64,000 nt of DNA from an uncultured Phycisphaerales bacterium (GTDB lineage Bacteria; Planctomycetota; Phycisphaerae; Tepidisphaerales; Tepidisphaeraceae). Where the stretch lies: contig CAWJPJ010000006.1 of the NCBI GenBank assembly GCA_963844715.1, positions 928,001 through 992,000 of the forward strand, in the 5' to 3' direction. The translations under genes and the position numbers were made by a program. Position 1 is the stretch's first letter. Each line of letters opens with the position of its first letter. A model generated the notes under the pieces. The model did not search any database. It was not told where the DNA came from and worked only from the letters and a program-made list of their open reading frames with translations. This document shows positions 3,070-46,022 of this stretch, piece after piece.

Positions 3070-4581
3070 ATGGCGGCAGACTCTCAAGGACGAGAATCGT
3101 CTCGTGGGCTCTCAAAGCCTGCGCCGGCCTGGCTGGGGAAGAAGGTCGGGCGGTTCAGACTGCTGGCAAGCGTGGGGCAGGGGTCGATGGGGCGGGTCTT
3201 TCGGGCCGAGGATTCCAATCTCAATCGGCAGGTCGCTCTCAAGGTTTTGCCTAACAAGTTGAAGCTTGACGACGAGGAAGTCGCCGTCGAGCAGTTCATT
3301 CGCGAGGCGCGGTCGGCCGCGACGCTGGAACACCCCAACGTCGTGCACATCTACGAAGTCAACCAGACGGACAAAATCTGGTATATCGCCATGGAGCTTC
3401 TGGAGGGGGGGAACCTGCGCGAGTTGATCAAAGCCAACGGGCCGATGGACATGATTCGCGCCTGTCAGGTAGCCGCGGAAGCGGCGGAGGCGCTGGATTA
3501 CGCTCACAAGGCGGGGATTGTGCATCGCGACGTAAAGCCGGCGAATTTAATGCTCACGCGCACCGGGCGATGCAAATTGACGGATTTCGGCCTGGCGAGG
3601 ATCGACGACGCGAACGATTCGTTTCACATGGGGACGGAGAGCGTCGGCACGCCGCTCTACGCCGCGCCGGAAGTCACCCGTGGGCGGGCGGCGCAGGCGT
3701 CGGCGGATATCTACAGCCTTGGGTGCACGCTCTATTACCTTCTGACGGGGACGCCGCCGTTTTACGCCAAGACCGCTCCTGAGCTGATGCAGTTGCATCA
3801 GACGGCCCCCCCGCCGCATTTGTGCAATGATCGGCCGGACCTGCCGGAGACGCTCGCCCAGGCGATCATCCGGGCCATGGCCAAAGAGCCGGAGGAGCGA
3901 TTCGAATCGGCCGGACAGTTTGCCAAGGTTTTGCGCATGCACACGATTCCGGTCTCGGGATCGGGATCGGGATTAGGGGCGGGATCGGGATCGGCGGCGA
4001 ATTTCATGCAGGGGAGCGGGTCGAATCCGCTCGCGCCGGCGGCCGCGCCGCAGTTTTCTCGGCGTTTACTTGTTGGCGGAAGCATCGCCGCGGTTCTGGT
4101 TCTGGCCGGCGGAATTTCCGCGGCGGTTTATTTCGCGGCTCGGTCTGAAGCTCCGCCCATGCTGGCCGCGCCCCGGGTTACAGTCCAGCCGGCGGCGGAC
4201 GTGCAGAATTCCGTGCCGCCACCGCCACCGAAAGCCGACGCCCTGCAAGAGAATCTCGTTCCCGCCGCGACTTTCCAGGCTTCAGAGACCTCCCGCTTGA
4301 TGGCGATCGCCAAGGGGGATGATCCCAGACTTGCGGGGAAGCCGGTATCCGTCGTGGGTCAGATCGCCACGATTCACCCCACGCCGTCGGGCAAGTCGAT
4401 GCGGATTGAATTCGTGGGGTCGGATTCCGATGTCTTTTGCGCAACGTGCCCGCCGTCGTTGGCTAAATTGATTCAGGATGGATTTACGGGCCGGCTGATC
4501 CGCATTACTGGAGTTCCCCTGCTGCATAAGGATCGGGCGGAAATTCGCATCGATTCGCTGGATCAGATTCAGGCGAATTGA
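3070..4581 (+). CDS. Hanks-type Ser/Thr protein kinase with TM helix and C-terminal extracytoplasmic (possibly OB-fold) domain
   Basis: GQGSMG, VALK, HRDVKPAN, DFG and APE motifs; TM segment LLVGGSIAAVLVLAGGISAAVYF. Confidence 0.93.
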   Translation: MAADSQGRESSRGLSKPAPAWLGKKVGRFRLLASVGQGSMGRVFRAEDSNLNRQVALKVLPNKLKLDDEEVAVEQFIREARSAATLEHPNVVHIYEVNQTDKIWYIAMELLEGGNLRELIKANGPMDMIRACQVAAEAAEALDYAHKAGIVHRDVKPANLMLTRTGRCKLTDFGLARIDDANDSFHMGTESVGTPLYAAPEVTRGRAAQASADIYSLGCTLYYLLTGTPPFYAKTAPELMQLHQTAPPPHLCNDRPDLPETLAQAIIRAMAKEPEERFESAGQFAKVLRMHTIPVSGSGSGLGAGSGSAANFMQGSGSNPLAPAAAPQFSRRLLVGGSIAAVLVLAGGISAAVYFAARSEAPPMLAAPRVTVQPAADVQNSVPPPPPKADALQENLVPAATFQASETSRLMAIAKGDDPRLAGKPVSVVGQIATIHPTPSGKSMRIEFVGSDSDVFCATCPPSLAKLIQDGFTGRLIRITGVPLLHKDRAEIRIDSLDQIQAN

Positions 4582-24625: not shown

Positions 24626-24698
24626 GGGCCTGTAGCTCAGCGGCCAGAGTGCTTGCTCGACACGCAAGAGGTCCGTGGTTCGATTCCACGCCGGCCCA
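24626..24698 (+). tRNA. tRNA-Val(GAC)
   Basis: Anticodon arm CTTGC-TC GAC AC-GCAAG; T-loop TTCGATT. Confidence 0.88.
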
Positions 24699-24721
24699 CT
24701 CTCGGTTCGCGCCGCATTCGG

Positions 24722-24959
24722 GCGCCTAGAGCGGCTTGCGGCTCCGCGTAGCGAGCCAGTTGGCCTCGGCTGCAACGGAGGCAAGGATGAACGACGAGGC
24801 GTATCAGAAAATCAGATACGTTGAGGAGCGAAGACGCGGCATCCGTTGCAGCCGTGGACAAATGGCCGCTAGGCGGAGCCGCAATCCGCTCTAAGCTCAA
24901 TCGGCGAGAGCGCCGCGCTTACATCGCGGAGGATGTTGGTTCGAGTCCAGCTTGGCGCA
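24722..24959 (+). tRNA. tRNA-Val(TAC) interrupted by a hairpin insert (24727-24893)
   Basis: 5' GCGCC at 24722 pairs with 3' GGCGC-A at 24954-24959; D arm, CCGCG-CT TAC AT-CGCGG and T arm follow the insert. Confidence 0.78.
24727..24893. mobile_element. MITE-like long hairpin inserted in tRNA-Val(TAC)
   Basis: Ends TAGAGCGG...CCGCTCTA; about 55-bp imperfect stem; TA at both ends. Confidence 0.7.
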
Positions 24960-25050
24960 TGGAGATGAAAAATGACGGGAATGCCCGGAAAATCAAGGTG
25001 TTTTCGCGTTGTTGACTGAACGGAAACGCCGCGAGAATCAAGGTTTTTTT

Positions 25051-25122
25051 GCGCTGTTAGCTCAGAGGCAGAGCACCCGGCCGATAACCGGGAGGCCGGA
25101 GAGTCGAGAACTCCACGGCGCA
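25051..25122 (+). tRNA. tRNA-Ile(GAT), atypical T arm
   Basis: CCCGG-CC GAT AA-CCGGG; acceptor GCGCTGT/ACGGCGC; T-loop GTCGAGA is non-canonical. Confidence 0.72.
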
Positions 25123-25187
25123 CTGAATTGGCGACGCGTCGTTAGCAGGCAAATGGATTCTCGCTGAACCCCGCGCGCTCTTCTCTT

Positions 25188-25228
25188 CCCCCCTCTCCCG
25201 GTACTCCGGGGGAGGGCTGGGGTGGGGG
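25188..25228. repeat. REP-like element
   Basis: CCCCTCTCCCGGTACTCCGGGGGAGGGCTGGGGTGGGGG, resembling the common CCCTCTCCC/GGGAGAGGG REP class. Confidence 0.65.
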
Positions 25229-25275
25229 CCGGCGCAATTCAGGCAAGATCCGCGGTAATCGGCAGTTCGCCTCGG

Positions 25276-25350
25276 GCACTGGTAGCTCAACTGGATCAGA
25301 GTTCCGGTCTACGAAACCGGAGGTTGAAGGTTCGACCCCTTCCCAGTGCG
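25276..25350 (+). tRNA. tRNA-Arg(ACG)
   Basis: CCGGT-CT ACG AA-ACCGG; acceptor GCACTGG/CCAGTGC. Confidence 0.9.
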
Positions 25351-25407
25351 TTATGAACGAAAAATGGTTGTATATATATCTATTGCAATACAACCAGAAG
25401 TGTCCGC

Positions 25408-25479
25408 GCACTCGTAGCTTAAGGGTTAAGCCGCCGGTTCTTACCCGGCCTGATGCAGGTTCGAATCCTGCCGGGTGCA
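25408..25479 (+). tRNA. tRNA-Lys(CTT)
   Basis: GCCGG-TT CTT AC-CCGGC; T-loop TTCGAAT. Confidence 0.85.
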
Positions 25480-25534
25480 TGAAAGGAGAATCGAAAAATG
25501 AGCCCGAGCAGAACCAAACGGTGCAGGTAAATCC

Positions 25535-25609
25535 GCACCGGTAGCTCAATGGAAACAGAGCAACCCTCTTCTAAAGGGTCGGCTGAGGGTTCGAGTCCCT
25601 CCCGGTGCA
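25535..25609 (+). tRNA. tRNA-Arg(TCT)
   Basis: ACCCT-CT TCT AA-AGGGT. Confidence 0.9.
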
Positions 25610-25623
25610 TGTAGATTCCGCGC

Positions 25624-25695
25624 GCACCGGTAGCTCAACGGCAGAGCCGCCGCCTTTTAAGCGGAGTGATGCGGGTTCGAGTCCTGCTCGGTGCA
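25624..25695 (+). tRNA. tRNA-Lys(TTT)
   Basis: CCGC-CT TTT AA-GCGG. Confidence 0.88.
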
Positions 25696-25707
25696 TGAAT
25701 ACACCAC

Positions 25708-25781
25708 GGTTCAGTAGCCCAATCGGCAGAGGCGCCTGACTCAGAATCAGGATAGTGCAGGTTCGAATCCTGCCTGAACTA
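25708..25781 (+). tRNA. tRNA-Leu(CAG), short variable loop
   Basis: CCTGA-CT CAG AA-TCAGG; 5-nt variable loop ATAGT; A73. Confidence 0.85.
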
Positions 25782-25792
25782 TTTCGGCGAAC

Positions 25793-25868
25793 GTTGCGGT
25801 AGCTCAATCGGATTCAGAGCGCGGCCCTCCGAAGGCCGAGGGTGAAGGTTCGATTCCTTCCCGCGACA
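25793..25868 (+). tRNA. tRNA-Arg(CCG)
   Basis: CGGCC-CT CCG AA-GGCCG. Confidence 0.9.
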
Positions 25869-25878
25869 TCGAAAATTC

Positions 25879-25950
25879 GGGCCCGTCGTCTAACGGAAAG
25901 ACTCCTGGCCTGCACCCAGGAAATGAGGGTTCAATTCCCTCCGGCGTCCA
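25879..25950 (+). tRNA. tRNA-Ala(TGC)
   Basis: CCTGG-CC TGC AC-CCAGG; G3-U70 retained; one extra base in the 3' acceptor strand. Confidence 0.82.
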
Positions 25951-26036
25951 TGCGAGCGGCTTCGTCCGCTCCAGAAAGAAGGTGATCGATCATGAGCGAA
26001 AACTCATCGGAAAGTTCATCTAGCGGCTCCACATCC

Positions 26037-26124
26037 GGAGGGTTGGCTGAACGGCTAAGGCACCCGTCTCGAAAACGGGCATTCCCGATGACTGGGATTG
26101 GGGGTTCGAATCCCTCACCCTCCG
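26037..26124 (+). tRNA. tRNA-Ser(CGA)
   Basis: CCCGT-CT CGA AA-ACGGG; long variable arm. Confidence 0.9.
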
Positions 26125-26149
26125 CTGAAGTAAACGAGAACGTGCGCAT

Positions 26150-26239
26150 GGAGGGTTGGCAGAGCGGACGATTGCGCCGCGGTGCTAACGCGGAAGGCGC
26201 CGACTAGGCGTCTCGAAGGTTCGAATCCTTCACCCTCCT
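26150..26239 (+). tRNA. tRNA-Ser(GCT)
   Basis: CCGCG-GT GCT AA-CGCGG; long variable arm. Confidence 0.88.
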
Positions 26240-26282
26240 TTGGAATGTGCGAGAGGGAACGGAGCTGGTCCGTTCCCGGAAT

Positions 26283-26294
26283 GTTCTTTGACAA
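26283..26294 (+). promoter_or_regulatory. boxA-like antitermination sequence inside the tRNA array
   Basis: GTTCTTTGACAA resembles rrn boxA (GCTCTTTAACAA); preceded by hairpin GGGAACGGA...TCCGTTCCC. Confidence 0.5.
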
Positions 26295-26310
26295 TCCGGT
26301 GGCGTAATTC

Positions 26311-26384
26311 GCCGTCATAGCTCAGTCGGGATGAGCGTCCGGTCGTCAACCGGAAGGTCATGGGTTCGATTCCCATTGGCGGCG
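26311..26384 (+). tRNA. tRNA-Asp(GTC)
   Basis: TCCGG-TC GTC AA-CCGGA; G73. Confidence 0.87.
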
Positions 26385-26412
26385 TTGGGCGCGAATTCCG
26401 CGCGCCTTCGAA

Positions 26413-26484
26413 GTGGATTTAGCTCAATCGGTAGAGCAGAGGTCTGAAAATCCTCCCGCCCTGGTTCAATTCCAGGAATCCACA
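26413..26484 (+). tRNA. tRNA-Phe(GAA)
   Basis: GAGGT-CT GAA AA-TCCTC; acceptor GTGGATT/AATCCAC. Confidence 0.87.
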
Positions 26485-26506
26485 TGTCGGCCAAAGGCCG
26501 CGAATC

Positions 26507-26578
26507 GCGTCGGTAGTTCAGCGGGTGGAACACCGCTATGCCAAGGCGGAGGCCCGGGTTCGATCCCCGGCCGGCGCA
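26507..26578 (+). tRNA. tRNA-Gly(GCC)
   Basis: CCGCT-AT GCC AA-GGCGG. Confidence 0.87.
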
Positions 26579-26583
26579 TTCTC

Positions 26584-26655
26584 GCAGTGGTAACTCAATC
26601 GGCAGAGTACCGGTCTTCCAAACCGGCAACGTGGGTTCGAATCCCGCTCACTGCA
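26584..26655 (+). tRNA. tRNA-Gly(TCC)
   Basis: CCGGT-CT TCC AA-ACCGG. Confidence 0.88.
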
Positions 26656-26691
26656 CTAAAGGGACTTTCGACGGTTGAGGATCTTTTTCAA

Positions 26692-26764
26692 GCCGTGGTA
26701 GCTCAACGGGTAGAGCAGTCGTCTCGTAAACGACAGATTGCCGGTTCGATCCCGGCCCGCGGCT
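26692..26764 (+). tRNA. tRNA-Thr(CGT)
   Basis: GTCGT-CT CGT AA-ACGAC. Confidence 0.9.
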
Positions 26765-26777
26765 TTTCAAAAAAATC

Positions 26778-26851
26778 GGGTGCGTAGCTCAGCGGCAAGA
26801 GCAGGGGCCTCATAAGCCTCAGGTCGTTGGTTCAAATCCAACCGTTACCCA
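26778..26851 (+). tRNA. tRNA with CAT anticodon (elongator Met or Ile2; not initiator-like)
   Basis: GGGGC-CT CAT AA-GCCTC; G1-C72 paired; one extra T in the 3' acceptor strand. Confidence 0.8.
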
Positions 26852-26852
26852 G

Positions 26853-27203
26853 TCAGGGATAGTTCAAACCGGTAGAACGCTCGGCTCTGAACCGGGATGT
26901 TGGAGGTTTCGGAGCAGCTTCATCTGTTTTGTAGCGTCTGCGTTGCGTCCAGATGGGCCGGGCGCTAGGCAGAGCGACGAGTTGGGTCAGGCACAGCGAC
27001 CCGGCGAGGAGCGATAACGACGCGAACGGCCCATCTGGACGCAACCCTCCGGGTCGCCGCCTTTTGCGGCCCATGCGTCGTTACTCCTCCTCGCCGTATC
27101 GTTTCACCTGATACGACTCGTCGTCGCGCCTAGCCTGTGCCGCAAAAGGCGGCGACGCAGACGCTACAAAACAGATGAAACTGCTCTGATCCTTCTCCCT
27201 GAA
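26853..27203 (+). tRNA. tRNA-Gln(CTG) interrupted in the T-loop by a 277-nt insert
   Basis: TCAGGGA...CTCGG-CT CTG AA-CCGGG...GGAGG TTTC [insert 26911-27187] GAT CCTTC TCCCTGA A. Confidence 0.82.
26911..27187. mobile_element. Branched MITE-like hairpin insert in tRNA-Gln(CTG)
   Basis: Ends GGAGCAG...CTGCTCT; perfect 25-bp outer stem (26919-26943 with 27155-27179); two internal stems of 19 and 18 bp. Confidence 0.72.
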
Positions 27204-27204
27204 T

Positions 27205-27277
27205 TGAGCCGTAGTTTAATCGGTAGCAATGCCGGTCTTTGAATCCGGAGATCGTGGTTCAAATCCACGCGGCTCAA
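27205..27277 (+). tRNA. tRNA-Gln(TTG)
   Basis: CCGGT-CT TTG AA-TCCGG; acceptor TGAGCCG/CGGCTCA. Confidence 0.85.
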
Positions 27278-27283
27278 CTTCTT

Positions 27284-27356
27284 ACCCATGTAGCTCAACC
27301 GGTAGAGCAGGCGGCTGTTAACCGCCGTGGTGGTGGTTCGAATCCATCCGTGGGTG
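27284..27356 (+). tRNA. tRNA-Asn(GTT)
   Basis: GGCGG-CT GTT AA-CCGCC; G73. Confidence 0.88.
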
Positions 27357-27448
27357 TGGGCGGCGCTTCGCGCCACCAGAGCGTAGAAAGTAGAGGCCGA
27401 GAATTTTCTACTTTCCACTTTCCACGAACCACTTTCTCGCGCAGCGCC

Positions 27449-27520
27449 GCTCCTGTCGTCCAACGGTCAGGATACCGGGCCTTCAACCGGAGAATGTGGG
27501 TTCAATTCCCACCGGGAGTG
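27449..27520 (+). tRNA. tRNA-Glu(TTC)
   Basis: CCGGG-CC TTC AA-CCGG (one C short, possibly a homopolymer error); acceptor GCTCCTG/CGGGAGT. Confidence 0.75.
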
Positions 27521-27536
27521 CATGGAGAAATGATTT

Positions 27537-27610
27537 CAGCGTGTGGCGTAGCTTGGTAACGCACGTGCCTCGGGCGCACGGGATCGAAGGTTCGAATCCT
27601 TCCACGCTGA
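27537..27610 (+). tRNA. tRNA-Pro(CGG)
   Basis: CGTGC-CT CGG GC-GCACG; C1-G72, A73. Confidence 0.9.
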
Positions 27611-27615
27611 CTTTC

Positions 27616-27701
27616 GCGTAGGTCGCATAATTGGCATTGCAGCGGGCCGTAACCCCGCCGACCCTTAGTGGTCCCTGGGGGTTCAAATCCCTCCCTACGC
27701 A
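27616..27701 (+). tRNA. tRNA-Tyr(GTA)
   Basis: GCGGG-CC GTA AC-CCCGC; long variable arm. Confidence 0.85.
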
Positions 27702-27827
27702 TTGCCGCAAAGCGGCAATAGAGCGGTGGCGCAGTCGAACAGCCAACGAATGACTCGAGGAAATCGTCCCCGTCAGACGATCCCACCGCGGTCTACTGCT
27801 CCCCTGCTCTACTGTTCAGAATTTTCC

Positions 27828-27900
27828 GCGCCGGAAGTTCCAACGGCGGAACGCCCGCCTCCAAATCGGGAAGCGGCAGGTTCGATCCCTGCTCGGCGCG
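27828..27900 (+). tRNA. tRNA-Trp(CCA)
   Basis: CCCGC-CT CCA AA-TCGGG; G73; A at position 8. Confidence 0.82.
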
Positions 27901-27911
27901 CTGGCAGTTTC

Positions 27912-27983
27912 GAGGATGTGGCCGATTGGACAGGCGCGGGTCTGCAAAGCCCGTCGATGCTGGTTCGAATCCAGTCATCCTCT
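27912..27983 (+). tRNA. tRNA-Cys(GCA)
   Basis: CGGGT-CT GCA AA-GCCCG; U73. Confidence 0.88.
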
Positions 27984-27989
27984 TTTGAT

Positions 27990-28064
27990 GGTGGCCGTAG
28001 CTCAAACGGTCAGAGCACCGGGCTGTGAACCCGGTCGGTGTGAGTTCGAGTCTCACCGGTCACC
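27990..28064 (+). tRNA. tRNA-His(GTG)
   Basis: G-1/C73; CCGGG-CT GTG AA-CCCGG. Confidence 0.9.
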
Positions 28065-28096
28065 CTGTATTGCTGTTGATGGCTGGAAATTTGAGA

Positions 28097-39353: not shown

Positions 39354-39989
39354 ATGCAAACGTGCGATGCCCCCCAACCCGTTGAAGTCGCCGGGCTCAC
39401 GCTCTTCGGCCTGGGTCACACCGACGAATTGCTGATGCGCCTGCCGGTGCGAAAGCACATCGTGCCCGTTGCGCTTCACCGCCTCCCCGAGCCCGCGTGT
39501 TACGCCGAGTTTCGCTTTTTTCTGCGCCCCGTCCCGGTCACCACCGACTACGTCGGCTTCGTCTCCTGCCGCTGGTCAGAAAAATTCCCGGCCGCGACGC
39601 CGATCGATCAGCTCCATCAATTGCCCCTCTCGCCAAACTGCGTCTACGCCCCCTCCCCCACCGGCGGAATTGACTGGGTCGCGCACAGCAACCATGTCCA
39701 CCCCGGCCTGGCCGCCCTGATCCCCGAGCTAGCCGCCGCCATGGGCATCGCGCTCCTGCCCAAAGCTCCCACACTCTGGACCGGCAACTTCATTTGCCAC
39801 CGCCAAATATGGGAGTCCTACCAAACGGCATTCATCGCCGCCTCCCAATACGCCGCCCAAGGCTGGCGCACCGACCCGCCATTCAGCGTCGGCCGTTACG
39901 ATCCAACCCGCAAAGTCGCCTACCTCATGGAACGAGCCACAATGGCCTACTTCGCATCAAGGTCAGATTTGAAAATCGTGAAGATCTGA
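39354..39989 (+). CDS. Hypothetical protein, possibly glycan-related
   Basis: Co-oriented end of cluster; DYVGF...NFIC...AYLMER resembles DUF4422-like proteins. Confidence 0.5.
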   Translation: MQTCDAPQPVEVAGLTLFGLGHTDELLMRLPVRKHIVPVALHRLPEPACYAEFRFFLRPVPVTTDYVGFVSCRWSEKFPAATPIDQLHQLPLSPNCVYAPSPTGGIDWVAHSNHVHPGLAALIPELAAAMGIALLPKAPTLWTGNFICHRQIWESYQTAFIAASQYAAQGWRTDPPFSVGRYDPTRKVAYLMERATMAYFASRSDLKIVKI

Positions 39990-40013
39990 GCGAACCGCCA
40001 ACTGCCTGATTAC

Positions 40014-40056
40014 CCAAAATCGGAATGACAAGACACCCGTTGACCTTTCCTGCGTT
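40014..40056. repeat. att-like direct repeat B, copy 1 (degenerate tRNA-Pro 3' end)
   Basis: 38/43 identical to 43342-43384. Confidence 0.8.
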
Positions 40057-40436
40057 TTCTAAGCGGAAACAAGGTTCGATGCGCTCCCATTTGGAATTTG
40101 ACTTCAGGCGAAATAGGCGAGTTCGACATCCCGTCACTCCCTGCCCGTCCGGGCAGTTTGGCTGCGGCTTGTTCGGTAGGTTGCCCACGTAGAGCCGCGC
40201 TCAGTTCGGCCCCGCGCCGGCAGAACCTTCGGGCTCCAGTCCAGTCCCACCCGCTCGGGAAACTCGCCGCAAGCAGGCGGAGGGGTAAGGGAATCCGGGT
40301 TATCTGAGCCGCGGGCGCGACATCCGTCCACATACAACTCGGTCCGTTGTCCATGCGAAGATTGGTGGTATATTGTGCCTGAAATCGCTTGGTCCGCACA
40401 AGCGCAAAATCCAACCCCCTATCAGGCAAATCAATC

Positions 40437-41819
40437 ATGGCTCTCTCGACTGCACTACCAGGCGATCACAACGAAGATATCTTCGCCTCCGAGGACTTGG
40501 CCAACCCGCTTCCGAAAAAGCATTTTCCGCGCCATCAGCGGGATCCGCGGCGAATTTACCAGGCGGTGCGCGACGAACTGCTTCTGGATGGGAACTCGCG
40601 GCAGAACCTGGCCACGTTTTGCCAAACCTGGATCGAGCCGGAGGTCCGCCAGCTTCTGGACGATTGCATTGACAAGAACATGGTCGATAAGGATGAGTAT
40701 CCGCAGACCGCGGAAATCGAGAACCGCTGCGCGCATATGTTGGCGAACCTCTGGAACTCGCCGGATGCGGCGGCTTCAGTCGGCTGCTCGACCACCGGTT
40801 CGAGCGAAGCGGCGATGCTGGGCGGCATGGCCATGAAATGGCGCTGGCGCGCGATTCGCAAGGCGGCGGGAAAACCCGCCGAACGTCCCAATCTCATCAC
40901 CGGTCCGGTGCAGATCTGCTGGCATAAATTCGCCCGTTACTGGGACGTCGAACTTCGCGAAATCCCGATGGAAGAGGGCCGGCTGCTCATGAACCCGCAG
41001 GAGGTGCTTGCCCGCTGTGATGAAAACACCATCGGCGTCGTGCCCACCCTGGGGGTCACATTCGACGGACGCTACGAACCGGTCAAGGCAGTCGCCGATG
41101 CCTTGGATGAATTTCAAAAGGAGTCGGGGCTCGATATTCCCATCCACGTGGACGCCGCCAGCGGCGGTTTTCTTGCTCCGTTCTGCGCGCCCGACCTGGT
41201 GTGGGATTTTCGCCTGCCGCGCGTGAAGTCAATCAACACTTCGGGCCATAAATACGGACTGGCTCCGCTGGGCTGCGGATGGGTTGTGTGGCGCCAGCGA
41301 AGTGATTTGCCCGAGGATCTGATCTTCAACGTCAATTATCTCGGCGGCAACATGCCGACGTTCGCCTTAAATTTCTCGCGGCCGGGCGGACAAGTCATAG
41401 CGCAGTACTACAACTTTGTACGGCTCGGGCGCGATGGATACACCCAGGTGCAGTCCGCCTGCTATCGGACCGCGCAGTATCTGGCCAAAGAGATCGCCGC
41501 CCTGGGCCCCTTCGAGATGATCTTCGACGGCGACCCCGTCGGCGGCATTCCAGCCATTTGCTGGAGGATTCCCAAAGGAATAAACCCCGGCTACACCCTT
41601 TACGATCTGGCCGAGCGGCTGACTTTGCGCGGCTGGCAGGTGCCCGCCTATTCCCTGCCGGCGAATCAGCAGGACACGGTTGTGCAGCGGATTATCATTC
41701 GCCTGGGAGTCAGCCGCGATATGGCGGGGCTGCTGGTCGACAATTTCAGGGCCGCCGTCGACTTCCTGACCACGCATCCGACCATGCGTCAGCCGGACGG
41801 CACCGCGTTTCATCACTGA
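40437..41819 (+). CDS. gadB: Glutamate decarboxylase
   Basis: [44 protein letters not shown] (PLP lysine), RGWQVPAY. Confidence 0.93.
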
Positions 41820-41843
41820 TTGAAGAATGGAACCGGTTTCACA

Positions 41844-43139
41844 ATGAATCTCAAGTCAGGTTTTCTGCCTTGGTTGATCTGGGTTTTGGCGGCGGTGTTC
41901 GTGGTCTTTAACTACGTTCAACAGGTCGTCCCCAATGTCATTGCCGTTGATTTAAGTCAAGCGTTTAACGCAAGTGGGAGCACGCTGGGAAATATTGCCG
42001 CCGCTTATTTCTATGCGTACGCGCTTCTGCAAATTCCGGTTGGGCTAATCGTGGATCGCTTCGGCACGCGCTGGCCGCTGGTTATTGCAATCCTCGCGGC
42101 CGGCATCGGTACGCTTGGATTCGCCCGAGCGCATGATTCCGGCAGCGCGCAGCTTGCCCGATTGCTTATGGGCGCTAGCGCCGCTTTCTCGTTCATCGGT
42201 TGCCTGAAATTGGCGCAGGCATGGTTCCCGCCATCGAAGTTTTCCACTTTGGCTGGGATGACAAATACGGCAGGAATGCTCGGCGCCGCCAGCGGCGCGC
42301 CTGTCGCGGTGCTGGTAAAAGCAATCGGCTGGCGCGCGGCAGTGGCTTGGATGGGCGGCGCGGAGATGGTTCTGGCGATCCTTGTTTTCGCGGTGGTTCG
42401 TGATCGTCCGGCGGACAAGGGCTCATCCCCAGCCACGCATCCATCCGCAAAAACATCTGAAAGATTGCTTGGCGTGCTGGCCGATCCGCAGGTGTGGATC
42501 AATGGCATATACGCGACGACCATCAGCCTGGTGTTTGTGGCTTTTGGCGGACTTTGGGGCGCGGGCTACATCCAAAAGGTTTATGGTTTGGACACGGTGG
42601 GCGCTGCCGGCGCCGGGTCTTATCTGTTCCTTGGCGGCATCGCAGGAAGTCTGTTCTTCGGCTGGTTTTCCGACTATCTCGGGCGGCGGAAAATCCCGAT
42701 GGTTGTGGCCGGCGTTGGGGCGCTGGCCGCCATGTCCGGACTGCTTTATCTGCCAGGACTGCCGCTGGTTGAATTTAAGGCGGGGCTTTTTCTGGTGGGA
42801 TGTTTCAGCAGCGCTAACATTATTTCCTATGCGGTTGCCCGCGATCTCTATCCGAGGCTGGCCGGCTTTTCGATTGGATTCTTAAGCACCTGTTATTTCG
42901 CCGGCAGCGCGGCGTCGCAGCCGCTGGTCGGAATGCTGCTTGAGCGCGGCCACTCCAACGGCAGCGTTACGGGACTTGCCGCCTTGACCGTGGGCGACTA
43001 TCGCTTTGCCCTATCGCCGCTGGTGGGATTTATGTTTGTGGGATTAATTGCCTCGTTGCTGCTGAAGGAACCTTCAACGGAGAACATAGCCGCGACCTCG
43101 TCGGTTTCCCTAAAGACCGCGGATGTTGGCCAGTCGTAG
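41844..43139 (+). CDS. MFS transporter
   Basis: 12 TM pattern; GLIVDRFGTR and GWFSDYLGRRK motif A copies. Confidence 0.9.
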   Translation: MNLKSGFLPWLIWVLAAVFVVFNYVQQVVPNVIAVDLSQAFNASGSTLGNIAAAYFYAYALLQIPVGLIVDRFGTRWPLVIAILAAGIGTLGFARAHDSGSAQLARLLMGASAAFSFIGCLKLAQAWFPPSKFSTLAGMTNTAGMLGAASGAPVAVLVKAIGWRAAVAWMGGAEMVLAILVFAVVRDRPADKGSSPATHPSAKTSERLLGVLADPQVWINGIYATTISLVFVAFGGLWGAGYIQKVYGLDTVGAAGAGSYLFLGGIAGSLFFGWFSDYLGRRKIPMVVAGVGALAAMSGLLYLPGLPLVEFKAGLFLVGCFSSANIISYAVARDLYPRLAGFSIGFLSTCYFAGSAASQPLVGMLLERGHSNGSVTGLAALTVGDYRFALSPLVGFMFVGLIASLLLKEPSTENIAATSSVSLKTADVGQS

Positions 43140-43183
43140 GGAAAGACTGGAGCGCATCAATCCAAGAGGTACAGTCCCACCTG

Positions 43184-43288
43184 GACATTAGGCTCAATGG
43201 CGCAACGCTCGGTTTTGAAATGAGGAAGCCCTTCAACGCGCTGGCCAAAGGGCTCGTTGTCCCGTCAAATTGGAGTGATAGGATTTGA
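43184..43288 (+). pseudogene. Probable C-terminal remnant of a site-specific recombinase gene ending in the att site
   Basis: Reads DIRLNGATLGFEMRKPFNALAKGLVVPSNWSDRI*; its last codons are the tRNA-Pro 3' fragment. Family assignment is from recall, not a search. Confidence 0.5.
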
Positions 43289-43298
43289 ACCGATGACC
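43271..43298 (-). repeat. Duplicated tRNA-Pro 3' fragment (T arm plus acceptor strand)
   Basis: TGGAGTGATAGGATTTGAACCGATGACC versus TCGGGGTGATAGGATTTGAACCTACGACC in the intact tRNA at 45286-45314. Confidence 0.85.
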
Positions 43299-43384
43299 TG
43301 TCGGCGCGGCAACCGCTCTAAAACGCGTTCCCCACGGACTTCCAAAATCGGGGTGACAAGTCACCAGTTGAACTTTCCTGCGTT
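43299..43384. repeat. Repeat R copy 1 overlapping repeat B copy 2
   Basis: 43299-43356 matches 45235-45294 (about 50/60); 43342-43384 matches 40014-40056 (38/43). Confidence 0.8.
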
Positions 43385-43656
43385 CTTCGCTCAGAAATGA
43401 GGGCGTAAAGCGGCGCGGTGCATCGCCAGTTATAACGACCTCGTTCAGTTCCCGGACGGGGTATACGCCGTAGATTGCCAGCCCCTTCAGTGTTGGTTCA
43501 ACCTGAAATGGAACGAGGGCGATTCCCATTCGTGACATCGAAAGGTCCATGAGTCTGATTGAGAGCTGGCGATGTCATTTGAACGAGTCAGCCTTCCAGA
43601 ATAGGCCGGCGACGGACCAGAACATCGACACCAAACGAGGGGGAGTCGCCCAGCAT

Positions 43657-43698
43657 TATAGCACCGCTATAGACACCGACGTATAGCAGTGCTATAGT
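43657..43698 (+). promoter_or_regulatory. Sigma70-type promoter overlapped by two TetR-like operators
   Basis: TATAGC-N3-GCTATA at 43657-43671 and 43682-43696; TAGACA-17 nt-TATAGT ending 6 nt before the ATG. Confidence 0.7.
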
Positions 43699-43704
43699 GC
43701 TCGG

Positions 43705-44262
43705 ATGACTACGCGAGAGACGCTGGTAACAGCGGCGATAAAAATCATCGAAAGGGACGGGGCGGCGGAGTTTTCCACGCGGGCGGTCTGCACGCTCGCG
43801 AAGGTAACCGCACCGACGCTCTATCACCATTTCGGCAGTGCCGACGGCCTGCTGAGCGCCGCCATCGAGGAGGCGTTCAACCAGTTCCTTGAACGCAAAA
43901 AGGCCGTTGCGCGACAGCCCGATTCTGAGTCTGCTCTGCGGCACGGCTGGAACAACTACGTCCGCTTTGCCGCGGAGCGCCCGCGACTCTACGCGGCGAT
44001 GATTTCCCGCCTTCTTCTGGGAGCCAAGATCCCGGCTGCCGAGCAGGCGAGATTGCACTTGATGGCACGCATCAAGGCCGTCGCCGACAAGGGACGGCTC
44101 GCCATCGCCGCCGACGCCGCCGCCGATCTCGTCTGGGCCTCCTCCCACGCAGCCGCTCTTCTCTACGTCATGGGGAAACCCGATCAAGTCGTTATCGACG
44201 GCCTGCGTGACCGGGCGATGGGGATAGTCTTCAAACCAACGACAAAAGGAAAAAACAAATGA
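43705..44262 (+). CDS. TetR/AcrR-family regulator
   Basis: FSTRAVCTLAKVTAPTLYHHFGS HTH. Confidence 0.92.
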   Translation: MTTRETLVTAAIKIIERDGAAEFSTRAVCTLAKVTAPTLYHHFGSADGLLSAAIEEAFNQFLERKKAVARQPDSESALRHGWNNYVRFAAERPRLYAAMISRLLLGAKIPAAEQARLHLMARIKAVADKGRLAIAADAAADLVWASSHAAALLYVMGKPDQVVIDGLRDRAMGIVFKPTTKGKNK

Positions 44263-45227
44263 AAGTCTTTGTCACCGGAGGCTCCGGCTTCCTTGGTTCG
44301 CGTATGATCAAACAGCTTGCGGCCGACGGTCACAACGTTCTTGCCCTCACCCGGTCTGAGGCGTCTGATGGGAAAATTCGTTCGCTGGGAGCGACCCCGT
44401 TGCGGGGTGACATTGAGCGGCCCGAGTCGCTATCTCTGCCCGCGATCGATGCCGTCATCCATGCGGCGGCCTACTTCCGTTTCGCAGGTCCACGTAAACC
44501 CTATTTCAACGCGAACGTGGTGGGTACCTCCGCGATCCTGAAAGCAGCGGAGCAGGCCGGAGCAAAGACCTTCATTTACGTGAGCGCCGGCGCGGTTGTC
44601 ATGGACAACCGGGGCACGGCCGTCCACAACGCCGACGAGAGTGCCCCCACATTTCCCGACAGCTTCTCGGGCTACATCGCGAGCAAGGCACGCGGTGAAG
44701 CGGCGGTGCTGGCGGCGAACAAAGCCGGCTTCCGCACGGTCGCCATTCGGCCACCTGCCATCTGGGGGCCGAACGACAGGTTCAGCCACGAACTCCCACG
44801 CGTCATTAAATCCGGCCAGTTCGCCTTCATCGATCGCGGCAACTACGCATTCGCAACTTGCCACGTCGATAACGTGATCGAGGCCGTGCAAGGTGCGCTC
44901 GATCGCGGCACCGGCGGACGGGCCTACTTCGTTGCCGACCGCGAGCCCACGAGCTTTCGCAGATTCGTCGCCACGATCGCGGAGAGGCAGGGGTTGTCCG
45001 TCGACCGGCTACGGTCCATCCCTTATCGCCTGGCGTTCACGTTGGGACGAGTCATGGAACTCGTAGCGGCCCTCAGGTTCTCCAAGACTGACCCGCCGTT
45101 GTCACGTACGATGGTGCGGATGATCGGGCGGGAATTCACAACCAACGACGCGGCCGCGCGCCGTGAGCTGGGCTACGTTGGCAAGACCTCAAGGGCTGAG
45201 GGTATGGCGACATATCGCAGCGCTTAG
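44259..45227 (+). CDS. NAD-dependent epimerase/3-beta-HSD-like extended SDR
   Basis: VTGGSGFLG, HAAA, YIASK, IRPPAIWGP. Confidence 0.9.
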   Translation: MKVFVTGGSGFLGSRMIKQLAADGHNVLALTRSEASDGKIRSLGATPLRGDIERPESLSLPAIDAVIHAAAYFRFAGPRKPYFNANVVGTSAILKAAEQAGAKTFIYVSAGAVVMDNRGTAVHNADESAPTFPDSFSGYIASKARGEAAVLAANKAGFRTVAIRPPAIWGPNDRFSHELPRVIKSGQFAFIDRGNYAFATCHVDNVIEAVQGALDRGTGGRAYFVADREPTSFRRFVATIAERQGLSVDRLRSIPYRLAFTLGRVMELVAALRFSKTDPPLSRTMVRMIGREFTTNDAAARRELGYVGKTSRAEGMATYRSA

Positions 45228-45234
45228 GGCGGCA

Positions 45235-45294
45235 TGTCGCCGCGGCGACCGCTCTAAACCGAACGCCCCACGGACTACCGAAAAATCGGGGTGA
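45235..45294. repeat. Repeat R copy 2, abutting the tRNA-Pro 3' end
   Basis: Matches 43299-43356; contains the perfect palindrome GTCGCCGCGGCGAC. Confidence 0.8.
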
Positions 45295-45362
45295 TAGGAT
45301 TTGAACCTACGACCTCTTGGTCCCGAACCAAGTCGCTCTAAACCAAACTGAGCTACACCCCG
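45286..45362 (-). tRNA. tRNA-Pro(CGG), stand-alone copy
   Basis: CGGGGTG acceptor, CTTGG-TT CGG GA-CCAAG, GTAGG TTCAAAT CCTAT; one extra base before the anticodon stem. Confidence 0.92.
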
Positions 45363-45533
45363 GCGTTTCTGCTTTCCTGACGATCTCCGGGGCGGAAAGT
45401 CTATCTGATGCACCGCGGGAGGCAAGCGAATCGGGCCGGGCGCGAAAACAGAGGCGTTTTTCAGCGAAAGCCGACAGATAGCCATCCGTTGGTTTTTTTT
45501 GTACCTTGTCCACCCACCAACCAAAGGAGATGC

Positions 45534-46022
45534 ATGGCAAAGCAGTACCCGCAGCAGCCGGCGATGACGATCGACGCCGCCAAGAATTACACCGCGACGA
45601 TCGACACGACCAAGGGAAAGATCGTCTGCCAGTTGTTTGCCAAGGATGCGCCGGTGACCGTGAACAATTTCGTCTTCCTCGCCCGCGAGAAGTTTTACGA
45701 TGGGACGAAATTTCACCGCGTGATCGCCGACTTCATGGTTCAGGGCGGGGACCCCACCGGCACGGGAACGGGCGGGCCGGGGTACAAGTTTGCCGATGAG
45801 ACGAGGAATAATCCCAACAAGCACAAGGCCGGTTCCCTCTCAATGGCCAACGCCGGGCCGAACACCAACGGCAGCCAATTCTTCATCACCCACGTCGTCA
45901 CCGATTGGCTCGACGGCAAGCACACCGTCTTCGGCCAGGTGAAGGACAAGGCCGGCCAGGACGTGGTGAACTCAATTAAGCAAGGTGACAAGATCAACAG
46001 CGTCGAGATCAGCGAGGCGTAG
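45534..46022 (+). CDS. Cyclophilin-type peptidyl-prolyl cis-trans isomerase
   Basis: [56 protein letters not shown]. Confidence 0.95.

What the first reader, a model, noticed from the sequence alone, without database searches (positions are those of the whole stretch)
40014..45362. tRNA-Pro-anchored stack of small gene cassettes delimited by tRNA-derived repeats, with no integrase
Seen, left to right: repeat B (40014-40056), gad + MFS, tRNA 3' fragment (43271-43298), repeat R and repeat B (43299-43384), TetR + SDR, repeat R (45235-45294), intact tRNA-Pro(CGG). The B copies are 38/43 identical and the R copies about 50/60. Both contain AAAATCGG(GG/AA)TGA, the tRNA 3' end, and on the tRNA strand B keeps a degenerate T-loop (GTTCAACT/GGTCAACG). 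Established: integrative elements duplicate tRNA 3' ends. Inference: serial capture of 2-3 kb non-autonomous cassettes, each starting with the same att module, gives an integron-like array built on tRNA-derived sites and mobilised in trans.
Basis: partly seen in the sequence, partly recalled or inferred. Interest (0 to 1): 0.75.

Follow-up and report, generated by a model that had tools for sequence, protein, structure and literature searches.

The report
Serine-recombinase island relics at tRNA-Pro
Two small accessory gene blocks next to a proline tRNA gene are leftovers of mobile elements inserted by a serine recombinase that targets this tRNA across Planctomycetota, a little-described but not fundamentally new way of stacking foreign genes.

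Summary
The repeats, the tRNA fragment and the four cargo genes are real. Repeat B is not a loose tRNA relic. It is the element-side (attP-type) half-site plus core of a large serine recombinase (LSR) family whose gene ends inside the 3' end of tRNA-Pro. Such LSRs occur in 62 of 141 family genomes, and B occurs in 51 of 141, with no hit for the reversed control. A roughly 35-codon LSR tail remnant lies at 43181-43288, so "no integrase" holds only for intact genes. Repeat R is a separate, nearly genus-specific pseudo-tRNA-Pro module linked to small GIY-YIG genes; here it supplied a second landing site.

Best reading: two LSR islets (gad+MFS; TetR+SDR) inserted one after another and later lost their recombinase. 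Their cargo is absent from all 140 other family genomes searched. Stacks of 2-6 LSR-less, B-bounded cassettes recur in 19 of the 74 stretches examined. One 0.8-kb cassette is 93% identical between two genera, so mobilisation in trans is plausible for the family. It is unproven, and unlikely now, for this locus.

Closest known: Dehalococcoides ssrA islands and SCC composite islands. Integron membership fails. Earlier notes of this scan describe the same kind on other DNA.

The parts
39354..39989 (+). Left chromosomal flank: ORF of 211 aa with no Pfam family. About 30 nt separate its stop codon from the B1 core.
   Evidence: It is conserved at about 71-72% DNA identity in same-genus G001, where other genes follow it.
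40020..40075 (-). B1: distal att site of cassette 2 (attR type: attP left arm plus core), decayed. It has 4 mismatches to the 28-nt B pattern and its core reads CATTCCGA.
40389..41819 (+). Cargo of cassette 2: PLP-dependent (glutamate-type) decarboxylase.
   Evidence: PF00282, E 5e-87. No DNA match in the 140 other family genomes.
41820..43139 (+). Cargo of cassette 2: MFS transporter.
   Evidence: PF07690, E 7.5e-40. No DNA match in the family.
43181..43288 (+). C-terminal remnant (about 35 codons, ending ...SNWSDRI*) of a large serine recombinase gene. Its last codons are antisense to the tRNA fragment. It contains the P' half-site (43259-43269) and a hairpin at about 43226-43256.
   Evidence: 48.6% identity over 35 aa to the G010 tail, E 0.009. 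In one search, 12 of the 22 matching places outside G000 fall in query 3126-3266 (window 43182-43322, LSR tail plus tRNA fragment), in 12 genomes, at 75-81% identity. The full-length proteins carry Resolvase+Recombinase+Zn_ribbon_recom.
43270..43298 (-). tRNA-Pro 3' fragment (T-arm plus acceptor), a B-type half-site. Together with P' it forms attL of cassette 2. It is the 3' part of the pseudo-tRNA R2.
   Evidence: It does not score as a tRNA.
43299..43347 (-). R2: 5' part of a pseudo-tRNA-Pro (acceptor/D-arm remnant plus a degenerate copy of the 14-nt palindrome in place of the anticodon arm). It is the chromosomal side (B') of the B2 junction.
43348..43403 (-). B2: distal att site of cassette 1 (attP left arm of about 50 nt plus core), well preserved with 0 mismatches to the pattern.
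43649..43704 (.). 23-nt inverted repeat just upstream of the TetR gene; operator-like (inference).
   Evidence: I4, 87% complementary.
43705..44262 (+). Cargo of cassette 1: TetR-family regulator.
   Evidence: PF00440.
44259..45227 (+). Cargo of cassette 1: NAD-dependent SDR of the 3-beta-HSD/epimerase type.
   Evidence: PF01073, PF01370.
45235..45285 (-). R1: pseudo-tRNA-Pro 5' part with the exact 14-nt palindrome (45236-45249), directly downstream of the intact tRNA.
45286..45362 (-). Intact tRNA-Pro(CGG); its 3' end is the attB-type target.
45408..46022 (+). Right chromosomal flank: cyclophilin-type PPIase. It is next to tRNA-Pro(CGG) in G002 as well, and in G001 in the inverted orientation.

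Best explanation
The locus is a stack of two decayed integrative islets left by tRNA-Pro-specific large serine recombinase (LSR) elements. In this element family the LSR gene reads towards the tRNA, and its last roughly 6 codons (..RGDRI*) are antisense to the T-arm and acceptor end. The attachment site is centred on the last bases of the tRNA. The tRNA T-arm/acceptor is the bacterial-type half-site. Repeat B is the element-type left half-site: it has the same outer GTTCAA and inner TCYTGTCA motifs, set 5 nt further apart, followed by the shared core. The start of the LSR tail (TTGACGGGAC) is the right half-site. Integration therefore leaves tRNA-core-LSR...cargo...B-core-flank. In this genus tRNA-Pro genes are followed by pseudo-tRNA-Pro units (repeat R, linked to small GIY-YIG genes), and these units offer extra landing sites. 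Inferred history: the ancestral order was tRNA, then pseudo-tRNA a, then pseudo-tRNA b. One element (gad+MFS) integrated at the 3' end of pseudo-tRNA b (the 'fragment'). Another (TetR+SDR) integrated upstream of it. Deletions then removed both recombinase genes, leaving a roughly 35-codon tail in cassette 2 and nothing in cassette 1. Shown: the sites, the LSR remnant, the family-wide link between LSR, tRNA-Pro and B, and the uniqueness of the cargo. Inferred: the order of events, the crossover position, and present immobility.
For: LSR remnant: (tail match), and the window stretch 43182-43322 matches 12 places in 12 other family genomes at 75-81% identity. Full-length relatives (about 505-545 aa from their start codons; open frames of 514-555 aa) carry Resolvase+Recombinase+Zn_ribbon_recom. 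Tail matches occur in 62 of 141 family genomes. Among the best 80 of 435 relatives across Planctomycetota, 53 have a convergent tRNA-Pro overlapping the gene's end, and 72 of 80 have at least the tRNA-Pro 3' segment there. B occurs at 99 sites in 51 of 141 genomes against 0 control hits. In 6 loci the order is tRNA-Pro or its 3' fragment, then LSR or an LSR remnant, then B; in 2 of these the LSR is intact (L041 19.3 kb, L185 6.0 kb). G024:C9, G113:C6, G113:C24 and G048:C112 show the same order from the coordinates. LSR remnants come in graded lengths (about 25, 35, 80 and 114 aa, and scattered fragments), which is a decay series. The 5-nt wider spacing of the outer motif in B than in the tRNA is visible and matches the attP/attB rule of Rutherford et al. 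(PMC3783163, passages read). Some LSR-less cassettes carry a mirror-image right half-site, GCAGTTGAAC. G001, of the same genus, has an empty tRNA-Pro(CGG) site with its own terminator. The cargo is absent from all 140 other family genomes. R belongs with GIY-YIG/pseudo-tRNA units at G000:C6:558.8-559.7 kb, in G002 and in 4 further loci.
Against: Nothing recombinase-related is left in cassette 1, so its origin as an LSR element rests only on B2. The junction between the intact tRNA and R1 looks like an unoccupied site, and the proposed deletion that removed attL of cassette 1 is not documented. R1 also aligns past the palindrome with a 5' pseudo-tRNA unit at the tRNA-Pro(GGG) locus, so it may never have had a T-arm. 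Canonical LSRs recombine only attP with attB, so stacks without an intervening bacterial-type half-site in other genomes need an extra explanation. One LSR/B pair (L186) has the wrong orientation. The own genome (85% complete) has no cognate LSR and a single unrelated Resolvase-domain hit 570 kb away. No recombination was observed.
Confidence: 0.7

Rival explanations
1. The cassettes are non-autonomous mini-elements that are, or recently were, captured and exchanged in trans by LSRs of autonomous elements. This would make tRNA-Pro an integron- or SCC-like gene-collecting platform.
For: In 32 of the 38 loci with a tRNA-Pro head, no LSR hit lies between the head and B, and the cassettes measure 0.58-4.3 kb. 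19 of 74 stretches carry 2-6 same-strand B sites. The roughly 50-58-nt B module is conserved across genera while the cargo is unrelated. Some LSR-less cassettes keep complete half-sites at both ends. One 0.8-kb single-gene cassette is 93% identical over 833 nt between two genera, with no matching DNA detected between the flanks. A third, partial copy sits behind a six-site array. Another segment of about 0.8-0.9 kb is shared at 84-88% by three genera. Four of the five array-bearing genomes searched with the full-length LSR have no cognate LSR.
Against: In this window cassette 2 retains an LSR tail, so it was once autonomous. Cassette 1 has no attL. The B1 and fragment cores each differ at two positions from the consensus and from each other. 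No identical copy of the window's cargo exists elsewhere. Canonical LSR directionality disfavours insertion at attL or attR (abstract and passages of PMC3783163). Loci were chosen by the B pattern, which biases the counts.
Confidence: 0.2
2. The repeats are remnants of tyrosine-integrase islands (displaced tRNA 3' halves), or products of local segmental duplication or GIY-YIG homing, and have nothing to do with serine recombinases.
For: tRNA 3' duplications are the classic scar of tyrosine integrases. The genome has 38 tyrosine-recombinase hits. R units are clearly tied to GIY-YIG genes, and tandem duplication of such units is seen.
Against: None of the tyrosine recombinase genes lies in the window, and none was found among 73 ORFs of 8 array loci. 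B copies share derived insertions relative to the tRNA, so they are copies of one element-borne arm and not independently decayed tRNA halves. B co-occurs with LSR genes in the expected order and orientation. The sequence next to the fragment is LSR coding sequence.
Confidence: 0.05

Closest known systems
Dehalococcoides ssrA genomic islands (DsiB serine recombinase); PMC3146451, passages read
   Same: Tandem islands lie downstream of a tRNA-like gene, bounded by repeats of its 3' end. A roughly 540-aa serine recombinase gene sits next to attL on the reverse strand. A conserved element-side motif lies upstream of each repeat, and insertion is in the T-loop region. Many islands lack the integration module and are read as cis-mobilizable elements built up by accretion. 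A ParB-domain gene is part of the module, as in L185 here.
   Different: The target here is a true tRNA (all three tRNA-Pro isoacceptors), not tmRNA, and the phylum is Planctomycetota. The recombinase ORF overlaps the target. Recombinase-less units are mostly 0.6-4 kb holding 1-3 genes. Pseudo-tRNA copies act as extra sites in this genus. Homology between these LSRs and DsiB was not tested.
SCC/SCCmec composite islands with Ccr serine recombinases and ccr-less pseudo-SCC elements (recalled; CcrB is named in the passages of PMC3146451)
   Same: A large serine recombinase inserts cassettes at the 3' end of a conserved gene. Arrays form with repeated att sites, and they include recombinase-less cassettes mobilisable in trans.
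   Different: SCC targets a protein-coding gene (rlmH) and uses two recombinases. This comparison rests on recalled knowledge and was not tested here.
Phage-type large serine integrases (A118/LI, phiC31, Bxb1); PMC3783163, abstract and passages read
   Same: The domain set is the same. The att sites have dyad symmetry around a central dinucleotide, and the outer (zinc-ribbon) motif lies 5 bp further out in attP than in attB.
   Different: The elements here are islands or IME-like (a T4SS coupling protein in L185), not phages. The target is a tRNA gene whose function is preserved. The recombinase gene spans attP, so integration changes its last residues (inference).
CIME / accretion-mobilisation of ICESt-type elements (Pavlovic 2004; seen only as a citation in PMC3146451, otherwise recalled)
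   Same: att-flanked, recombinase-less islands are stacked beside autonomous elements at one site.
   Different: Those use tyrosine integrases, whose attL and attR can serve as targets. The rules for serine recombinases differ.
Integrons
   Same: The layout is similar: a row of small cassettes, each ending in a conserved recombination site.
   Different: There is no IntI tyrosine recombinase, no attI and no common promoter. The sites are double-strand LSR half-sites with no attC-like hairpin. The cassettes carry their own regulators and lie in both orientations.

Membership tests
Large serine recombinase integrative element | Recombinase with Resolvase catalytic domain, Recombinase domain and zinc-ribbon domain | tested here: met
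   Met in relatives (L027, L021, L041, L185). The window keeps only a roughly 35-codon C-terminal remnant with no Pfam domain.
Large serine recombinase integrative element | att sites with dyad symmetry around a short core; attP half-sites carry the outer motif 5 bp further from the centre than attB half-sites | tested here: met
   From the outer GTTCAA motif to the inner GTCA motif is 20 nt in B and 15 nt in the tRNA. The inner inverted repeats GTCYYGTCA / TGACGGGAC flank an 8-nt spacer. A mirror-image right arm occurs in some cassettes. The rule is from PMC3783163.
Large serine recombinase integrative element | Recombinase gene adjacent to one att site of the integrated element, with the partner site at the far end | tested here: met
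   6 loci show the order tRNA-Pro or its fragment, LSR or LSR remnant, then B, and 4 more pairs follow from the coordinates. The window shows the order fragment, LSR tail, gad/MFS, B1. One locus (L186) is inconsistent.
Large serine recombinase integrative element | Demonstrated attP x attB recombination and RDF-dependent excision | not testable with these tools
   Contigs laid on the locus showed no excision joints at 2-7x depth, which is uninformative.
Integron | IntI-type tyrosine recombinase with adjacent attI and Pc promoter | tested here: not met
   No PF00589 hit in the window. None among 73 ORFs of 8 array loci.
Integron | attC sites that fold as imperfect single-strand hairpins | tested here: not met
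   The B modules fold no better than shuffles (z -1.0 and +0.47).
Integron | Mostly promoterless cassettes in one orientation | tested here: not met
   The cassettes carry their own regulators (TetR, AraC, LacI) and their ORFs lie on both strands.
Cis-mobilizable element / accretion array (SCC-like, ssrA-GI-like) | att-bounded unit lacking recombination and transfer genes, stacked at the site used by autonomous relatives | tested here: met
Cis-mobilizable element / accretion array (SCC-like, ssrA-GI-like) | att sites still functional and the unit mobilised with or by a neighbour | tested here: inconclusive
   In the window, attL of cassette 1 is absent and the cores of cassette 2 have diverged. 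At family level there are a cassette 93% identical between two genera and two further shared segments.
tRNA gene (for R2 plus fragment) | Scores as a tRNA by covariance model or ARAGORN | tested here: not met
   only 45286-45362 scores.

The most novel reading that the evidence does not exclude
B-bounded, recombinase-less cassettes of 0.6-4 kb form a phylum-wide gene-cassette system at tRNA-Pro, driven by a large serine recombinase. In this reading, mini-elements that keep only the two attP half-sites are captured, stacked and exchanged in trans by LSRs of IME-like relatives. GIY-YIG-linked pseudo-tRNA copies multiply the landing pads. The recombinase gene spans its own attP, so integration switches its C-terminal tail.
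Probability: 0.3. Interest if true: 0.75.

Novelty: new variant of a known kind. Interest (0 to 1): 0.5.

Why it matters
The finding identifies tRNA-Pro as a gene-gain hotspot of Planctomycetota and names the enzyme family and both att half-sites. My paper searches found no description of this. Natural LSRs with defined attP/attB pairs are sought-after genome-engineering tools. This family offers many orthologues, and the 5-bp attP/attB spacing rule can be read directly from genomes. The arrays of tiny recombinase-less cassettes, including one shared at 93% identity between genera, make it directly testable whether serine recombinases can run an integron-like cassette economy. For annotation, it explains recurring 'tRNA-like' repeats and orphan accessory genes near tRNA-Pro.

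Tried and rejected
1. Looking for excision or empty-site joints in public runs. Four soil-metagenome runs from one study hold pieces of the locus as short contigs at 2-7x depth. The only joint is a 346-nt skip inside gad, in one run. This says nothing about excision.
2. Rfam at a permissive threshold on 39900-45450. Apart from the intact tRNA, the only match is a chance-level snoRNA model hit (E 0.38) inside gad. R2 plus the fragment is not a scoreable tRNA.
3. Single-strand folding of B1, B2, R2+fragment and R1. No fold is clearly better than shuffles (z +0.47 to -1.58). The attC-like reading was dropped.
4. DNA search of the cargo in 141 family genomes and 41 relatives. Only the att and LSR-tail segments match.
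5. Search for a cognate LSR in the own genome. None was found; there is one unrelated Resolvase hit 570 kb away.
6. The idea that R's middle part is a collapsed GIY-YIG gene. The alignment is too patchy to decide. R aligns at least as well to a 5' pseudo-tRNA unit.
7. Protein-coding constraint as the sole cause of B-module conservation. A common RGDxTP[VI]ELF tail is present, but part of the module is conserved at DNA level across a frame shift. Undecided.
8. Earlier notes of the scan looked up by place and by sequence: nothing found.
9. The integron and tyrosine-integrase readings were rejected (see rivals and membership tests).


Full report
OBSERVATION

The repeat finder returns three repeat pairs:
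- R: 43299-43347 / 45235-45283, 82% of 49 nt.
- B: 40014-40056 / 43342-43384, 88% of 43 nt.
- tRNA 3' fragment: 43262-43304 / 45278-45320, 81% of 43 nt.

BLAST in the whole genome gives 83.3% over 60 nt for R. ARAGORN and Rfam call one tRNA-Pro(CGG) at 45286-45362 on the minus strand. Pfam confirms a PLP-decarboxylase (gad-like), an MFS transporter, a TetR regulator and an SDR of the 3-beta-HSD type. Read on the tRNA strand the order is: tRNA-Pro, R1, (SDR, TetR), B2, R2, fragment, (MFS, gad), B1, then the end of a flanking ORF.

WHAT B IS

The sequence just beyond the fragment (43181-43288, plus strand) translates to ...MRKPFNALAKGLVVPSNWSDRI*. This matches the C-terminus of an ORF that abuts tRNA-Pro(CGG) in another genus (G010).

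- With that tail as query, 62 of 141 family genomes have matches, many in open frames of 500-555 aa.
- Full-length copies carry Resolvase + Recombinase + Zn_ribbon_recom, so they are large serine recombinases (LSR).
- Their last roughly 6 codons are antisense to the T-arm and acceptor end of a convergent tRNA-Pro. This holds for 9 of the 12 first loci.
- A scan of one genome per species found 435 relatives. Of the best 80, 53 have a tRNA-Pro (GGG 21, CGG 19, TGG 13) at the gene's end, and 72 of 80 have at least the tRNA-Pro 3' segment there.
- The named records are Planctomycetota MAGs and isolates (Tepidisphaerales, Phycisphaerales, Planctomycetaceae, Pirellulaceae, Gemmataceae).

A degenerate 28-nt B pattern hits 99 sites in 51 of 141 family genomes, and its reversed control hits none. 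B lies at the far end of LSR-bearing elements, in the expected orientation:
- L041: tRNA-Pro(CGG), intact LSR, B at 19.3 kb.
- L185: intact LSR, B at 6.0 kb.
- L014, L141, L145, L147: LSR remnants followed by B.
- G024:C9, G113:C6, G113:C24 and G048:C112: the same order from the coordinates.
- One pair (L186) is wrongly oriented.

B carries the same outer (GTTCAA) and inner (TCYTGTCA) motifs as the tRNA T-arm/acceptor, but they are 5 nt further apart. This is exactly the attP-versus-attB half-site relation described for serine integrases (PMC3783163, passages read). The inner motifs of B and of the LSR tail start form an inverted repeat around an 8-nt spacer that ends the tRNA. Some LSR-less cassettes even carry the mirror image of the outer motif on the right arm. 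B is therefore the attP left arm plus core, that is, the attR scar.

WHAT R IS

R is a different thing. It consists of a decayed tRNA-Pro 5' part followed by a 14-nt palindrome in place of the anticodon arm.

The same unit occurs at the tRNA-Pro(GGG) locus of this genome and at tRNA-Pro loci of G001, G002, G047 and G126. It is always associated with a small GIY-YIG gene (Pfam hit) that starts a few bases after a tRNA-Pro 3' end, and the units are often tandem. The R core occurs in only 5 of 141 family genomes, against 51 for B. R is thus not part of the LSR att module. It does, however, provide further bacterial-type half-sites.

MODEL FOR THE WINDOW

- Cassette 2 (40020-43298) has a complete architecture: bacterial-type half-site (the fragment), core, P' with the LSR tail, cargo, then B1.
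- Cassette 1 (43348-45285) ends in a well-kept B2 whose chromosomal side is R2. Its tRNA-proximal end shows only R1, so its attL and LSR must have been deleted. This step is inferred.
- The intact tRNA followed by R1 looks like an unoccupied site.
- No intact recombinase is in the window, and no cognate LSR is in the 85%-complete genome.
- The cargo has no DNA match in the 140 other family genomes. Only the LSR-tail/fragment and B2 segments match.
- Same-genus G001 has an empty tRNA-Pro(CGG) site with its own terminator. G002 has GIY-YIG/pseudo-tRNA units there.
- B1 and the fragment have diverged cores, and attL of cassette 1 is missing. I therefore judge both cassettes to be fixed relics now (inference).

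I examined 74 stretches; all but the window were chosen by B hits, which biases the counts.
- 38 have a tRNA-Pro (23) or its 3' fragment (15) upstream of B.
- 32 of those 38 have no LSR hit between the head and B. There the distance from head to B is 0.58-4.3 kb.
- 19 stretches have 2-6 same-strand B sites spaced 0.1-7.3 kb apart.
- Cargo in 8 arrays is diverse: methyltransferase, TetR+SDR, AraC+DJ-1+NmrA, DinB, glyoxalase, NACHT plus an antidote, and two IS transposases. No recombinase of either class was found.
- Of the five array-bearing genomes searched with the full-length LSR, four have no cognate LSR; the fifth has one on another contig, beside a tRNA-Ala.
- Cassettes are not shared between array-bearing genomes of one genus.
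- However, one 0.8-kb single-gene (P-loop protein) cassette is 93% identical over 833 nt between two genera, with no matching DNA detected between the flanks. A partial third copy sits behind a six-site array. Another segment of about 0.8-0.9 kb is shared at 84-88% by three genera.
- The graded LSR remnants argue for decay of autonomous elements. The shared mini-cassettes, and cassettes with both half-sites intact, argue that some units move without their own recombinase.
- Intact relatives look like integrative mobilizable elements: L185 carries LSR + T4SS coupling protein + ParB-domain protein.

FURTHER MECHANISTIC POINTS (INFERENCE)

- The LSR coding tail contains a hairpin directly after the tRNA, which probably serves as its terminator.
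- Reading the LSR frame across the core into B gives a conserved alternative ending, RGDxTP[VI]ELF.... The gene therefore spans attP, and integration replaces its last residues with ..RGDRI*.
- This overlap may explain why about 50-58 nt of B are conserved. Part of that conservation is at DNA level only.

COMPARISON WITH KNOWN SYSTEMS

The closest described system is the Dehalococcoides ssrA island family. It has tandem islands at the tmRNA gene, a roughly 540-aa serine recombinase next to attL on the reverse strand, and a conserved element-side motif. Fifteen of its islands lack the integration module and are read as cis-mobilizable elements built up by accretion (PMC3146451, passages read). 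SCC composite islands (recalled) are a second analogue.

Integron membership fails on every defining feature tested.

Paper searches for serine recombinase + tRNA-Pro + genomic island, for Planctomycet* + serine recombinase + genomic island + tRNA, and for serine integrases at tRNA genes found no description of this family. I saw only search listings for those. Subscription journals are not covered.

Earlier notes of this scan describe the same kind on other DNA: a tRNA-Pro LSR cassette whose gene crosses its own site, and LSR cassette arrays at tRNA-Asn, tRNA-Asp and tRNA-Met in CPR bacteria. They agree with my reading, which I reached before seeing them.

VERDICT

The locus is a new variant of a known kind (serine-recombinase islands with recombinase-less tandem derivatives), and in this window it is present as relics.

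Noticed in passing
window 24626-28065: Dense tRNA gene array: 24 ARAGORN calls and 26 Rfam tRNA hits in 3.4 kb. It includes a second, sequence-divergent tRNA-Pro(CGG) at 27537-27611 and an odd tRNA call with a 2-nt anticodon at 27449-27521. Contig C6 holds 42 of the genome's 74 tRNA genes. A Pirellulales MAG locus (L064) has the LSR abutting a tRNA-Pro at the end of a 10-tRNA array.
   Followed up: no
G000:C6:558832-559740 (outside the window); L003 1-490; L198-L201: Small GIY-YIG genes (about 80-86 aa) start 2-5 nt after a tRNA-Pro 3' end. Each is followed by a pseudo-tRNA-Pro whose anticodon arm is replaced by a 14-nt palindrome. The units are often tandem (periods of 289 and 316 nt). In L199 a complete pseudo-tRNA precedes the GIY-YIG gene and the real tRNA-Pro(GGG). 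This looks like a selfish homing-type module tied to tRNA-Pro.
   Followed up: partly
window 45236-45249 and 12 other sites in G000: The 14-nt palindrome GTCGCCGCGGCGAC occurs 13 times exactly in the 4.55-Mb genome. By my own uniform-base estimate about 0.02 would be expected. Most copies are intergenic, several beside tRNA genes or low-complexity repeats.
   Followed up: no
L134 7126-7958 and L170 2574-3405; L042 13166-13475: The same 0.8-kb LSR-less cassette (a P-loop protein of about 190 aa) is 93% identical between two genera, with no matching DNA detected between the flanks. A partial copy (82-85%) lies behind the sixth B site of another genome's array.
   Followed up: partly
L185 (G137:C43:1-7500): A compact 6-kb intact element: LSR, two small ORFs, a T4SS coupling protein (TraG/VirD4 type), a ParB_N-domain protein and two small ORFs, ending in B. 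It resembles an integrative mobilizable element.
   Followed up: partly
window 43226-43256; P' regions of L041, L014, L145, L147: The LSR C-terminal coding sequence contains a conserved hairpin directly downstream of the tRNA 3' end. It probably acts as the tRNA's terminator after integration.
   Followed up: no
window 43346-43405; L041 19840-19923: Reading from the LSR frame across the att core into the B arm gives an alternative conserved tail (RGDxTP[VI]ELF..., with a stop 16-18 codons after the GD). This implies that the recombinase gene spans attP and changes its C-terminus on integration.
   Followed up: partly
L011 (G001:C233) 1030-1330: In same-genus G001 the tRNA-Pro(CGG) and its upstream region are inverted relative to the PPIase gene. 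The site is empty: it has its own terminator and no B, R or LSR.
   Followed up: partly
window 43649-43704: A 23-nt inverted repeat (87% complementary) lies immediately upstream of the TetR gene. It is a likely TetR operator for the TetR-SDR pair.
   Followed up: no
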